NCBI GenBank assembly: GCA_964016885.1
Contig: OZ024747.1
Coordinates: 6,138,001 to 6,202,000 of the forward strand
Length of the DNA: 64,000 nucleotides
Origin: Eledone cirrhosa
Lineage: Eukaryota
Direction of reading: 5' to 3'
Position 1 is the stretch's first letter. Each line of letters starts with the position of its first letter. The position numbers were made by a program, and so were the translations under genes. A model generated the notes under the pieces. That model was not told where the DNA came from. It was given only the letters and a program-made list of their open reading frames with translations, and ran no database searches. This document shows, in pieces, positions 36,851 through 42,900 of this stretch.

Positions 36851-37546
36851 ATAAAGGTGGATGTTTCTAATAATTACCCTAAAAATGTTGTAGGTCAACA
36901 GAACTATTATATCTATTATATCTATTATATCTAATATATTATATATATTAGATATAATAGATAAATAATATATACAATATATACAATATATGTCTAATAT
37001 ATTTGTTGTTTAGAAATCTGATCTTCAATTAAGAGATTGGATTGGCAACAAATGCAGTGGGATTCCAATATATTAGCTGTATATACACACACACACATCC
37101 ACACACACACACACACATACAAGCAGAGAGACATACACACACACACAAAATTTGTTGAATCATTATGATCTTGGGTTTGGTAAATGTGTATTTGGTAGGG
37201 TTCAGTTGTTAATCCTGTTTAAGTTGGATCCCTTGTGCCTCCCTACACTGAGTCCAGTTTATGGTGGCAAACAACCTTGTAGGGGGCCAGCCAAACCTAC
37301 GTAGGTGTGAGTTGTACCAACATGGTAGAACTTGGGGCACCTATCATTAAAACACACATGGAACCTCCTACAAGATACAACCTTGTAGGGGGCCAGCTAA
37401 ACCTACATAGGGGTGAGGTGTAACAACAACTGAGGCCCCTAGCATTGAAACACCCAAGAAACCACCTATGAGATACAACCTCATAGATAACCAGCTAAAC
37501 CCTCATAGGTGTGAACTGTAAATTTTTTATCTTGATTATATTTCAG

Positions 37547-37700
37547 GTGAGTAATAAACCAAGCCCAATTGCATTAGAACCGTTAAATGGTCAAAAGGCG
37601 GCGGTACTGTCCCTCCTTGTCCAACTTCCCTGTGGTGATGAGGACTACACTCCAAGTAACCAGTCAGGATTGGCAATTGCCAGTGCACTTGTATCTCTAG
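37547..37700 (+). CDS. ATRN: Attractin-like, penultimate coding exon
   Basis: tttcag| acceptor, TAG|gtaaat donor, 154 bp, phase 0-1. Encodes VSNKPSPIALEPLNGQKAAVLSLLVQLPCGDEDYTPSNQSGLAIASALVSL, matching ATRN PKPIALEP..GNKAAVLSVFVRLP..QSGLAVASALV. Confidence 0.95.
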
Positions 37701-37944
37701 GTAAATATCACTTTCTCTTTATTATGTTCTCATTGTCAATGTATATATATTTGCTATATATATTTGTGTCTCTATTGTTGTGTATATATCATCACTGTTT
37801 TATGTCCATTCTTCCATGCTAGCATGGCTTTGACGGGTTGTCCTGTTATGGGCAGTGTCCAGTCGGCTGACCTTGTCTTGCTCATACGGGAACTGATTCT
37901 GGCTTGATTTCTACAGCTGGATGCCCTTCCTAACACCAACCTCA

Positions 37945-39142
37945 TTTACAGTGTGGGCTGGGCTTCTTTTTTGCCGTGGCACCTCCACGACCACTTTACA
38001 GTGTGGGCTGGACTTCTTTTTTGCTGTGGCACCTCCACAACCACTTTACAGTGTGAGCTGGACTTCTTTTTTGCCGTGGCACCTCCACGACCACTTTACA
38101 GTGTGGGCTGGGCTTCTTTTTTGCCGTGGCACCTCCACGACCACTTTACAGTGTGGGCTGGGCTTCTTTTTTGCCGTGGCACCTCCACGACCACTTTACA
38201 GTGTGGGCTGGGCTTCTTTTTTGCTGTGGCACCTCCACGACCACTTTACAGTGTGAGCTGGGCTTCTTTTTTGCCGTGGCACCTCCACGACCACTTTACA
38301 GTGTGGGCTGGGCTTCTTTTTTGCCGTGGCACCTCCACGACCACTTTACAGTGTTGCCTGGGCTTCTTTTTTGCCGTGGCACCTCCACGACCACTTTACA
38401 GTGTGGGCTGGACTTCTTTTTTGCCGTGGCACCTCCACGACCACTTTACAGTGTGGGCTGGGCTTCTTTTTTGCCATGGCACCTCCACGACCACTTTACA
38501 GTGTGGGCTGGGCTTCTTTTTTGCCGTGGCACCTCCACGACCACTTTACAGTGTGGGCTGGGCTTCTTTTTTGCCGTGGCACCTCCACGACCACTTTACA
38601 GTGTGGGCTGGGCTTCTTTTTTGCCGTGGCACCTCCATGACCACTTTACAGTGTTGCCTGGGCTTCTTTTTTGCCGTGGCACCTCCACGACCACTTTACA
38701 GTGTGGGCTGGGCTTCTTTTTTGCCGTGGCACCTCCACGACCACTTTACAGTGTGAGCTGGACTTCTTTTTTGCCGTGGCACCTCCACGACCACTTTACA
38801 GTGTGGGCTGGGCTTCTTTTTTGCCGTGGCACCTCCACGACCACTTTACAGTGTGAGCTGGACTTCTTTTTTGCCGTGGCACCTCCACGACCACTTTACA
38901 GTGTGGGCTGGGCTTCTTTTTTGCCGTGGCACCTCCATGACCACTTTACAGTGTTGCCTGGGCTTCTTTTTTGCCGTGGCACCTCCACGACCACTTTACA
39001 GTGTGGGCTGGGCTTCTTTTTTGCCGTGGCACCTCCACGACCACTTTACAGTGTGGGCTGGACTTCTTTTTTGCCGTGGCACCTCCACGACCACTTTACA
39101 GTGTGGGCTGGGCTTCTTTTTTGCCGTGGCACCTCCACGACC
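37945..39142. repeat. 50-bp minisatellite, ~24 copies, SINE-derived, in the last attractin intron
   Basis: Unit ccactttacagtgtgggctgggcttcttttttgccgtggcacctccacga, continuous with the SINE at 37790-37950. Confidence 0.95.
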
Positions 39143-39813
39143 GATTTGAAGTGGGAGGGGGCCTATTGTCTATATATTTGTCTATATCATCATCATCTCC
39201 ATTTAATATTGTTGTGTGTATATATTTGTGTCTATATTGCTGTGTATATATATTTGTCTATATTTACGTCTATATTGTTGTGTATATATATCTGTGCCTT
39301 TTGTTGTGTGAAAAATATTTGTGTAGATGTCAGCTGCCAAGCTCTAGAGGTCAGCTGTTGTATTGTCTAAAATTGAGAAAAAGTTTTCGACAATGTAGAT
39401 CTTATAGCTCTTGTATTCTAGCTATAAGTTCATATTTGTACCTATTATCATAGGGGCATTGGGCTTTGTAGATTTAAATAAAAGGCAGGAAATTCTAGAG
39501 GGGTTCCAAGGAAGAGCAAAACAAACTGTCCTCAAAATTCAACGAGTAAGTTGAACAGTGAAGATTTGTGAAACATTCCAAAGATTCTTTTTTGATGATG
39601 ATGTTGTTATGCCTTTTCCCACTGACCCTCCTCTCTCACCATACCTCCCCCTCTCCCACCCTCTCCCTCACCCCTTCTCTCACCTCACCCCTTCTCTCAC
39701 CTCCCCCCTCTCTCACCCCCCTCTCTCCAGCCCCCCCCCCCCCCCCCCTCTCCCTCACCGCCTCCTCTCTCTCACACTATCTCATACCTCTCTATATTTT
39801 CTCTCTTCCACAG

Positions 39814-39908
39814 GAAATCCACGTAAACAAAGCTGTGAACCAAACAAAAGTGACAAAAATAAACACCGAAGACATATACACCAGTCACATCCAGATGCAT
39901 GTATATAG
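39814..39908 (+). CDS. ATRN: Attractin-like, terminal coding exon
   Basis: Long pyrimidine tract plus ccacag| acceptor. Phase 1 joins the previous exon (G|GA). Encodes GNPRKQSCEPNKSDKNKHRRHIHQSHPDACI-TAG; vertebrate ATRN also ends in -CI. Confidence 0.88.
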
Positions 39909-42900
39909 CAAAGTTTAGTCTATATATATATATATATATATAGACATATATATATATATATATATACACATATATATATATATATATATGTATAACATAT
40001 ACACACACAGATGTATATATATATACACACTCATAGGCAGACACACACACACACATACACACACTCGTGTCCACGTATACACATTTGTGGTGTGAAGGCG
40101 TGCGTGCGTGCATGCATGTGTGTATGTGTGTGTGTGTGTGTGTTCTTTCAGGTGCTTTGTGTGTGTGTGTGTGTGTGTGTATGTGTGTGTGATAATGATA
40201 ATTAATTAAATAATAATAATAATAATAAATTCAACAAATTTGTAAATAGTGATATATATAAAAAATTAAAAGACACAAAAAAACATTTGCAACAAAAAGA
40301 AACTCCAAAACAACAACAGACAACAACAACAGCAGCAGCAGAAGCCACCAAAGACATGTAAAACATCACCAAACTTGACTATATATTGATGATGATGGTG
40401 TGGTGGTGATGATAGTGTTGATGATGTGGTGGTGATGGTGTGATGGTAATGTGGTGGTGATGGTGATGGTAAGAAACTCCAAAACAGACAAACAAAAGCC
40501 ATGTAAAAAAAATCACCATACTTGACTATATGATGATGATGATGGTGATATGGTGGTGAAGATGATGAGATGATGGTGGTGGTGAAGATGTGGTGGTGGT
40601 GGTGGTGAAGATGTGATGGTGGTGGTGGTAATGTTGGTCATTTGTTGATCTATGGTGATGGTGGTCTGATCAGCAACAACAACAATAATAATAATAATAA
40701 TAATAGATAATATATTCTTTATGAATCACAAAGAGTTCACAGAAGGAAAACATTAGAGACAGTACAGGATGTTACTACAGGCTAACTGTGGCAGGGTTGG
40801 GTCTTCCCCTGTGTAAAACTACAGCAAAAATGTCTTGTCAACAACTACAACAATAATAATTGTTTGATATTAAAAAAAAAAAAATCAAATATAAAATATT
40901 ACAAAAATACAACAAAAACAGATTTTTTTTAATCAACTTTGTGAAGAAAAAAAGGCAGAAAATAAGAAAGAAATGAAGAGAAAGGATGAATGCCACCACA
41001 CCACCATCAACAACAGAGGATTACTCCGGAGATGAGAGATATTTTGGTCAATTATGACAAAATGGCAGACAAACGTTGACTGAAGGGGGGGGGGGGGTCT
41101 TTTTATTTTGCATTTTGTTTTTTCTTGTTTTTTTATGTTTTTCTTTTTTTATTGTTGACCATTGAAATGTAGAATTGTGACCTTGAGTGTGAACGTGACC
41201 CTTTGAGTGAGTGATTGTGAGTGTGAGTGTGAAGGAACTGTAAGATTAAGATTTAAAAGTTTCAAATCTCGGTGTTTCTTTCCATTTGAATTTATGGAAG
41301 TTTCTTTTTCTACTACTTGTAATTATTATTATTATTGGAATGGCAGAATCGGTAGAGCGTCGGACAACATGCTTAGCGGCATAGAGTTAAGGCACTTTGC
41401 GTTCTGAGTTCAAATCCCGCTGAGGTTAGCTTTGCCTTTCATCCTTACAGGGTCGATAAAATAAAGTACCAGTCATGCACTGGGGTCGATCTAATCGACT
41501 TTCCCCTCCCCCAAAATTGTTGGCCTTGTGCCTATATCAGAAACTATTATTATTAATGTTATTGTTGTTGTTGTTGTTAAGATGGTGGTTTGGCAGAATT
41601 GTTAGAGCCAGACAAATGTTTTTTTTAGTATTTGTAGCAGCCCTTTATGTTCTGAGTTCAAATCCCACCAGGGTCAACTTTGCAGCATAGAGTTACAGCC
41701 CTTTATGTTCTGAGTTCAAATCCCACCAGGGTCAACTTTGCAGCATAGAGTTACAGCCCTTTATGTTCTGAGTTCAAATCCCACCAGGGTCAACTTTGCC
41801 GTTCATAATTACTGGGTTAATAAAATGAAGTACCAGTCATTTACTGGGATCAATTAACCCCACACACACAACACACATTGGTGGCCTTGGGCCTAAATTA
41901 GAAACCATTATTAAGAGAGTGGTGGAGGGTGGTGTTAAAAATGGGTGGAGCATCGGATACCGTGAAATATTTCAAGTGTAACGGTTCGGCATTTCAGGTT
42001 CAAATTCTATTGAGGTTGAAAGTACCAGTCATACACTGGGGATTGGTTTTGTTGACTAGTCCCCCCCCTCCCCACGCCACCCCCCCCCCCCCCCGAATTT
42101 GTGGGGTCAATGCTAGAAGCCATAGTAATTATGGCAGGAATGTGGTGGTGGAGTGGCCACACTAGTGAAGGGCTGATATTGTGGAGTGGCGGCAGAATAT
42201 AGTGGAGTAGAGGCATTAAATGTGGAGTGATGGTAGACAGTGTAGTGAGGGCAGATACAGTGGAGTGGTGGCTGATATAGTGGAGTGTTGGTACAATGTA
42301 CCAGTGTTGTATTGGGGACTATTTATAACATCATTCTTCAAGAAGATTTGTGGGTTTGTGTCCCTTTTAGAAATAATAATTGTCATTCTTCCTCTCCTCT
42401 TACTCCTTCCTGCACTGGTTATCATCATCATGTGCTCTACTAGTTGTGGTGGTAGGTGTGGTGTGGTGTGTTGTGGTGGTAGTAGTGGTGTGGTGTGTTG
42501 TAGTAGTAGTGGTGTGGTGGTGGTGGTGGTAGTAGTGGAGTGTTGTGGTGGTGGTGGTGTGGTGTGTTGTGGTGGTGGTGGTAGTAATAGTAGTGGTGGT
42601 GGTGTGGTGTGTTGTAGTGATAGTAGTGGCATGTGTTGTGGTGATAGTAGTGGTGGTGGTGGTGGTGTGTTGTGTGTCTGATGATTGTTGTAATTTTTGC
42701 TATTACCACCAGCTACTACTACTACTGCTACTACTACCACCCCTCACTACAGTCATCACTACTCCCCCTCACACACATTCCCACAGGAGTTTCAAGGTGG
42801 GGTGGAGTGGAGTGTGTGTGTGTGTGTGGGGGGGGGGGGGGGGACACTAGCTGCAATAAAGAATTGATGTGGTTAATCCCAACTGAATAAATAAATGGCA

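What the first reader, a model, noticed from the sequence alone, without database searches (positions are those of the whole stretch)
37541..39918. Recursive-splice-like exon (CAG|GTGAGT) whose skipping yields an alternative tail ending in a class I PDZ motif
Seen: the penultimate exon begins GTGAGT right after tttcag. Joining the upstream exon (ends AAG) recreates AAG|GTGAGT, a consensus donor that looks stronger than this exon's own TAG|GTAAAT. Removing the 154-nt exon shifts the last exon into a second frame that is also open: EIHVNKAVNQTKVTKINTEDIYTSHIQMHVYSKV-TAG (39814-39918). The stop lies in the terminal coding exon, so NMD is unlikely. Known: -S-x-V-COOH is the class I PDZ ligand consensus, and AG|GT RS-exons exist in flies and vertebrates. 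Inference: two isoforms sharing MASRPF but ending -DACI or -YSKV.
Basis: partly seen in the sequence, partly recalled or inferred. Interest (0 to 1): 0.72.

Follow-up and report, generated by a model that had tools for sequence, protein, structure and literature searches.

The report
Ordinary octopus attractin exon, donor-like start
An essential, ancient exon of the octopus attractin gene happens to begin with a splice-donor-like sequence, a common feature of animal genes; the one transcript assembly available keeps the exon, and the proposed alternative PDZ-binding tail is likely a by-product of codon structure and chance.

Summary
The letters are as described, but they are ordinary. The locus is the 3' end of this octopod's attractin gene. 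Exon B (37547-37700) starts GTGAGT. Joined to exon A it makes the strongest reconstituted donor of 25 junctions recovered in the gene, so it is a putative RS-exon; in humans 3.6% of exons are, and 93.8% of those are constitutive. The only spliced contig available joins A-B-C; no skip form was seen. The 'second open frame' has probability 1.0 under every synonymous coding of the normal tail, so it is no evidence. The -SKV comes from the normal stop codon plus 7 UTR bases, and such ends arise by chance in 6.5-8.3% of frames. Decapodiform proteins start Val-Asn, which excludes GTGAGT, and 0 of 23 distant genomic orthologs start with GT. Exon B matches the MEGF8 segment whose mutation abolishes MGRN1-dependent activity, so a skip product would likely be ligase-uncoupled, not an equal isoform sharing MASRPF. 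Rare skipping is not excluded. The scan noted a different, intronic octopus recursive-site candidate on another genome.

The parts
24885..24963 (+). Attractin exon with the second half of the transmembrane helix and the juxtamembrane helix
   Evidence: tblastn of P0076; boundaries; its 3' end is joined to exon A in the X4 contig
30419..30550 (+). Exon A (132 nt, phase 0): MASRPF hinge, the following beta-strand and a basic linker; ends AAG
   Evidence: covered by the X4 contig, whose loose end continues into exon B
37545..37552 (+). Acceptor AG directly followed by GTGAGT (Val-Ser codons): the putative recursive 5' splice site once exon A is joined
   Evidence: U1 pairing and matrix scores; use as a donor not observed
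37547..37700 (+). Exon B (154 nt): conserved core of the attractin intracellular domain, matching the MGRN1-engaging segment of MEGF8
   Evidence: 75 homologs; alignment A1; match to PDB 9qqs_B 388-428; included in the X4 contig
37701..37706 (+). Exon B's own donor GTAAAT, the one used in the assembled transcript
   Evidence: X4 contig joins the end of exon B to exon C
39814..39908 (+). Exon C, normal frame, ending -HPDACI and stop
   Evidence: same ending in 8 cephalopod proteins
39814..39918 (+). Shifted frame that would be read if exon B were skipped, 34 codons ending -YSKV; the last three codons (39907-39915) are the AG of the normal stop plus 7 UTR bases
   Evidence: no transcript or protein support

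Best explanation
Exon B is a conserved coding exon of octopod attractin that is included in the assembled transcript and begins with a donor-like hexamer that is likely incidental and likely kept silent. Shown: the gene identity, the exon structure, inclusion of B in the one spliced contig, and the forced openness of the shifted frame. Inferred: the hexamer arose in the octopod line from Val plus an AGY serine codon at a place where decapodiforms have Val-Asn (one transition apart; direction inferred). After exon A is joined, the new donor is most likely blocked by the exon junction complex laid down just upstream, or lost because the short downstream intron (2.1 kb vs 7.0 kb) is removed first. 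The normal mRNA then gives a type I membrane adapter whose tail likely recruits the ubiquitin ligase MGRN1 as in mammals and flies. Any skipped mRNA would be splicing noise giving a receptor without the main MGRN1-engaging segment and with a chance -SKV end.
For: One 3703-nt contig of run X4 (depth 23.3) holds exon A and exon C exactly 154 letters apart, with exon B letters at both loose ends; 1 of 1 contig laid on each exon. The shifted frame is open with p = 1.0 over all synonymous codings in this species, O. bimaculoides and Argonauta, and 0.78 in the two decapodiform-type tails. In distant orthologs it stays open past the normal stop in 6 of 11 and ends in a class I motif in 1 of 11. 0 of 23 genomic ortholog loci with an intron here start with GT; L032 has the same 154-nt exon and starts ATG. 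P0001, P0002, P0005 and P0084 read Val-Asn, which cannot give G at +5. MEGF8 T2702 and L2717, whose mutation abolished activity, fall at chain positions 391 and 406, inside the stretch aligned to exon B. In humans 3.6% of exons are putative RS-exons, 21.7% of genes hold one and 93.8% are constitutive (PMC6224609). A Mago nashi gene is present in G000.
Against: The reconstituted donor is strong: best of 25 junctions in the gene and stronger by U1 pairing than B's own donor. In Drosophila, donor strength largely decides RS-exon inclusion, although msi and Ubx-m1 are included despite weaker own donors (PMC8605326). EJC knockdown did not raise RS-exon skipping in Drosophila S2 cells, so EJC protection in a protostome is not assured. 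RNA evidence is one sample of one study, kept as contigs that drop rare variants; tissue unknown. Cephalopod tails end A-C-I, whereas 49 of 62 collected tails ending C-[ILVM] have S or T at -2 and I, L or V last, so a PDZ-type end lost from the normal tail could in principle be supplied by skipping. This junction does vary in a decapodiform-type transcript (8-residue insert in P0005).
Confidence: 0.85

Rival explanations
1. Exon B is really re-spliced out at a low or tissue-limited rate through the reconstituted donor. The product is a stable, NMD-escaping attractin without the MGRN1-engaging segment that tunes ligase recruitment down; the -SKV end is incidental.
For: Strongest reconstituted donor in the gene; upstream 7-kb intron gives the A-B intermediate needed; incomplete repression gives physiological skipping of several human RS-exons; the skip stop lies 10 nt from the normal stop.
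Against: No skip contig in X4 (1 of 1 laid at each exon includes B); no such protein among 14 cluster members or 4 of 4 exon-A hits; site not possible in decapodiforms.
Confidence: 0.11
2. One reading: a selected isoform switch in which recursive skipping trades the -DACI tail for a class I PDZ ligand that tethers attractin to a scaffold.
For: -S-K-V fits the class I consensus (recalled consensus); cephalopods lack the S/T at -2 that most collected arthropod tails have.
Against: The frame is forced open; the motif is built from the stop codon and UTR and occurs by chance in 6.5-8.3% of frames; no transcript or protein support; the shared MASRPF is a hinge, not the main recognition surface.
Confidence: 0.04

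Closest known systems
Annotated, constitutive putative RS-exons repressed by the exon junction complex (Blazquez et al. 2018, PMC6224609)
   Same: A coding exon whose first bases rebuild a strong 5' splice site at the upstream exon junction and which is nevertheless included.
   Different: Here in a mollusc, a group not named in the passages I read; EJC dependence and use of the site are untested.
Drosophila expressed RS-exons (Ubx m1, msi, smooth) and intronic ratchet points (PMC8605326)
   Same: AG|GT at the exon start; like msi and Ubx-m1, included although its own donor scores lower.
   Different: Those sites are conserved at the base level and shown to be used; this one is not possible in decapodiforms and is absent from 23 distant loci. 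It is not a cryptic exon in a very long intron: flanking introns are 7.0 and 2.1 kb.
Attractin / ATRNL1 / Drosophila Distracted, with MEGF8, as MGRN1 adapters (PMC12752501; 10.1101/2025.09.11.675358)
   Same: Same protein family and tail layout: helix, MASRPF hinge, strand, then the conserved segment encoded by exon B.
   Different: MGRN1 binding is not tested for the cephalopod protein; the cephalopod tail ends A-C-I.

Membership tests
Putative RS-exon (sequence definition) | Reconstituted 5' splice site at the upstream junction as strong as 90% of the species' own donors | tested here: met
   U1 pairing -12.3 kcal/mol, stronger than 24 of the 25 donor calls in this gene (one call is wrong); 9.4 bits on a gene-derived matrix. 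MaxEntScan itself was not run.
Functional RS-exon | The reconstituted donor is used: skipped mRNA exists | tested here: inconclusive
   Only inclusion seen, in one contig set that drops rare variants.
Functional RS-exon | Lariats or intermediates begin at the first base of the exon; mutating the GT abolishes skipping | not testable with these tools
   No raw or nascent RNA reads were offered.
Functional RS-exon | Base-level conservation of the donor motif | tested here: not met
   Val-Asn in four decapodiform-type proteins excludes G at +5; 0 of 23 distant genomic loci start with GT. Within octopods only Val-Ser at protein level could be seen.
EJC-repressed RS-exon | Skipping rises on loss of eIF4A3, MAGOH or RBM8A | not testable with these tools
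   Only the presence of a Mago nashi gene was shown.
Class I PDZ ligand | C-terminal S/T-x-V/I/L | tested here: met
   -S-K-V then stop in the shifted frame; consensus recalled; chance rate 6.5-8.3%.
Class I PDZ ligand | The end exists on an expressed protein, is conserved and binds a PDZ domain | tested here: inconclusive
   No protein candidate (weak); UTR DNA of other cephalopods could not be fetched; binding not tested.
Attractin (ATRN/ATRNL1/Distracted) | Kelch, PSI, EGF ectodomain, single TM, MASRPF tail; orthology | tested here: met
   98-100% identity of exon B to named cephalopod attractins; P0076 maps exon by exon in order along G000:C7:6065214-6177905.

The most novel reading that the evidence does not exclude
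One Asn-to-Ser change in the octopod line created a near-perfect recursive donor at the start of the exon that encodes attractin's MGRN1-engaging segment. In some neurons the exon is re-spliced out, turning a ubiquitin-ligase adapter into a ligase-free receptor that ends in a class I PDZ ligand, the type of end that the normal cephalopod tail has lost. This would be the first recursive splicing event shown in a cephalopod in the library searched and a one-step switch from degrading partners to anchoring them.
Probability: 0.05. Interest if true: 0.65.

Novelty: new member of a known kind. Interest (0 to 1): 0.14.

Why it matters
As it stands it matters little: about one human gene in five holds such an exon, and this one is included in the transcript seen. 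Its use is as a caution: an alternative frame over a hydrophilic tail can be open by necessity, so 'both frames open and conserved' is not evidence of dual coding. If skipping were found and regulated, it would uncouple attractin from MGRN1 and give a clean test of whether the exon junction complex guards strong reconstituted donors in molluscs, where I found no paper on recursive splicing in octopus.

Tried and rejected
Pfam scan of the three exon peptides: 0 families for 3 of 3. Run search: 4 runs of one study, no RNA holder listed on record; X4 was treated as cDNA because its contig joins four exons at their splice sites. Run X1 laid nothing on exon A, which says nothing. A joint across exons A and C could not be read in a single lay, so skipping was judged from loose ends at each exon only. 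Protein search with the shifted frame plus 8 intron codons: no candidate, weak. '70 of 70 proteins with the MASRP-type motif also hold the exon B motif' is biased, since most were found with exon B as query; the unbiased part is 4 of 4 hits of the exon A query and the cluster members. Spliced alignment of the gene: the first junction was not resolved, and row 23 has a wrong donor because a small exon in between was missed; its exon start is right, so 25 exon starts and 24 true donors are usable. Search for the P0005 8-residue insert in intron A-B: best score 13, none positive with AG and GT flanks. Of 41 metagenome loci, 18 have no intron at this place (transcripts or intron loss) and were left out of the exon-start count; the 23 kept include near-duplicates (11 distinct first hexamers printed). 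The shifted-frame count used the 11 distinct tails that matched the pattern among L033-L072; L032 was read apart (open 72 codons, no class I end). Literature: 'recursive splicing' with 'octopus' gave 0 papers; 'attractin' with 'cephalopod' gave 7 whose titles concern pheromones, snails and other topics (listing only); one search gave nothing relevant among 20 listed. Earlier scan notes near this place: none. No structure or complex prediction was run.
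Full report
What the locus is. Exon B as query gave 75 proteins, the top ones cephalopod attractins at 94-100% identity. The Octopus protein P0076 maps in the window to 24885-24963, 30419-30550, 37547-37700 and 39814-39908, and exon by exon along G000:C7:6065214-6177905. Exon B has one match in G000. A weaker set of matches on C19 (30-48% identity) is probably MEGF8 (my inference).

Observation. All letters and coordinates hold. 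Exon A ends AAG at 30550. Exon B follows tttcag, starts GTGAGT, is 154 nt long and is followed by GTAAAT. With B the protein ends -DACI (stop 39906-39908); without B it would end -YSKV (stop 39916-39918).

How strong is the reconstituted donor? U1 pairing is -12.3 kcal/mol against -6.7 for B's own donor and -9.5 for A's. Among 25 junctions recovered in the gene it is the strongest reconstituted site, and only one real donor pairs better. A leave-one-out matrix from these donors gives 9.4 against 8.2 bits, nearly level. Six of the 25 exon starts begin with GT. From that and exon base content I estimate 0.24% of exons start GTRAGT, about 350 per 150,000 exons. In humans 3.6% of exons and 21.7% of genes meet the putative RS-exon definition and 93.8% of those exons are constitutive (PMC6224609, passages); the share is about half in Drosophila (section 15). 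At those rates a gene with 26 junctions has a 38-61% chance of holding one. So the site is real as sequence, strong, and of a common kind.

Is the exon skipped? Four runs of one study hold exon B; none is on record as RNA. X4 is spliced cDNA by its content: one 3703-nt contig at depth 23.3 covers exon A with the upstream exon before it and exon B's start behind it, and covers exon C with exon B's end before it. The two placements leave exactly 154 letters between A and C. One contig was laid on each exon and both are this one. Contigs drop rare variants and this is one sample, so rare or tissue-limited skipping is not excluded. Among 14 members of the five cephalopod-type clusters none has the alternative tail: those that reach the tail include B, and four end earlier. 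The exon A query returned 4 proteins, all with B. The shifted-frame query returned no candidate, which is weak evidence.

The second open frame carries no information. The shifted frame reads bases 2 and 3 of each normal codon plus base 1 of the next. A stop there needs a Leu, Ile, Val or Met codon followed by a codon starting with A or G. The octopod tail has no such pair, so the frame is open with probability 1.0 over all synonymous codings; the same holds for O. bimaculoides and Argonauta, and it is 0.78 for the two decapodiform-type tails. Shuffling the residues still gives 0.71 on average, while the third frame has 0.01 and is indeed closed. Across all 58 distinct tails tested the median is 0.23 and 2 are forced, so this is a property of the hydrophilic cephalopod tail. 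In real DNA of distant orthologs the shifted frame runs past the normal stop in 6 of 11, and for 72 codons in L032, whose exon starts ATG.

The PDZ-like end is built from non-coding letters. Ser-Lys-Val comes from the AG of the normal stop and the first 7 UTR bases. A class I ending (consensus recalled, not from a call) occurs in 250 of 3028 stop-ended frames of the window, in 428 of 6632 random stretches placed after this stop and in 1 of 11 ortholog shifted frames. UTR DNA of other cephalopods was not available to test it.

Conservation of the site. Octopus and Argonauta proteins start this exon Val-Ser; P0001, P0002, P0005 and P0084 start Val-Asn, which cannot place G at +5; the clam protein has Pro-Ser. 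A metagenome scan gave 41 ortholog loci. In 23 there is an intron at this place and none of these exons starts with GT; 18 have no intron there. L032 has the same 154-nt exon and the same junction phases, so the exon is old and its donor-like start is recent. Asn and AGY-Ser codons differ by one transition, which is the simplest origin (inferred; direction not proven).

What exon B encodes. A profile of 22 tails matches MEGF8 in PDB 9qqs_B at chain 289-324 (helix and MASRPF) and 388-428 (exon B equivalent; E 1.2e-06 for the chain). [quoted passage not shown] Taking V2635 as chain position 324, these two residues are 391 and 406 (Thr and Leu in the alignment), both inside the exon B match. ATRN engages the same three MGRN1 domains (PMC12752501, passages), and that paper cites the MASRPF motif as required for binding of the fly proteins. 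Skipping B would therefore keep a necessary hinge but likely remove the engager interface. The product would be ligase-uncoupled, not a second working tail.

How it most likely works. Shown: A-B-C splicing, with the junction motif left in the mature mRNA. Inferred: the new donor is masked by the exon junction complex, as for human constitutive RS-exons, or removed from play when the 2.1-kb downstream intron goes before the 7.0-kb upstream one. A Mago nashi gene is in G000. The caveat is that fly data are mixed: donor strength usually decides, some exons are included against it, pre-removing the upstream intron raises skipping (PMC8605326, passages), and EJC knockdown in S2 cells had no effect. 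No supplements were read; the species tables of PMC6224609 could bear on the base rate.

Novelty and verdict. A putative RS-exon in an octopod attractin gene: a new member of a well-described class, with inclusion shown and use not shown. I found no paper holding both 'recursive splicing' and 'octopus'. The scan has an unreviewed note on a different, intronic candidate in another octopus genome, which I did not test. Best explanation 0.85, low-level ligase-uncoupling skip 0.11, selected PDZ isoform 0.04. Interest 0.14.

Noticed in passing
P0005 versus P0084, junction equal to window 30550/37547: A decapodiform-type transcript carries an in-frame 8-residue insert exactly between exons A and B that its cluster mate lacks, suggesting a microexon or alternative splice site there. 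No counterpart was found in the window's intron.
   Followed up: partly
P0077, P0078, P0079 (Octopus vulgaris / sinensis models): Annotated attractin isoforms stop in the middle of the transmembrane helix, before the window's exon at 24885, and lack the whole tail. This may be a real tail-less form ending in the long upstream intron, or a model artefact.
   Followed up: no
G000:C7:6104701 (L013): Another attractin exon starts GCAAGTAT after an upstream exon ending TTG, a GC-type donor-like start.
   Followed up: no
P0003-P0005, P0076, P0080-P0082, P0084: Cephalopod attractins end A-C-I whereas most collected arthropod tails end S/T-C-I/L/V, a class I PDZ-type end in the normal frame.
   Followed up: partly
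window 37940-39145: Tandem array of about 24 copies of a 50-nt unit fills over half of the intron between exons B and C (seen).
   Followed up: no
window 15482-13710 and 60746-59916, minus strand: Open frames that look like fragments of LINE-type reverse transcriptases (resemblance recalled, not tested).
   Followed up: no
G000:C19:7059453-7108675: Second gene matching attractin at 30-48% identity, including the TM and MASRPF region; probably MEGF8.
   Followed up: no
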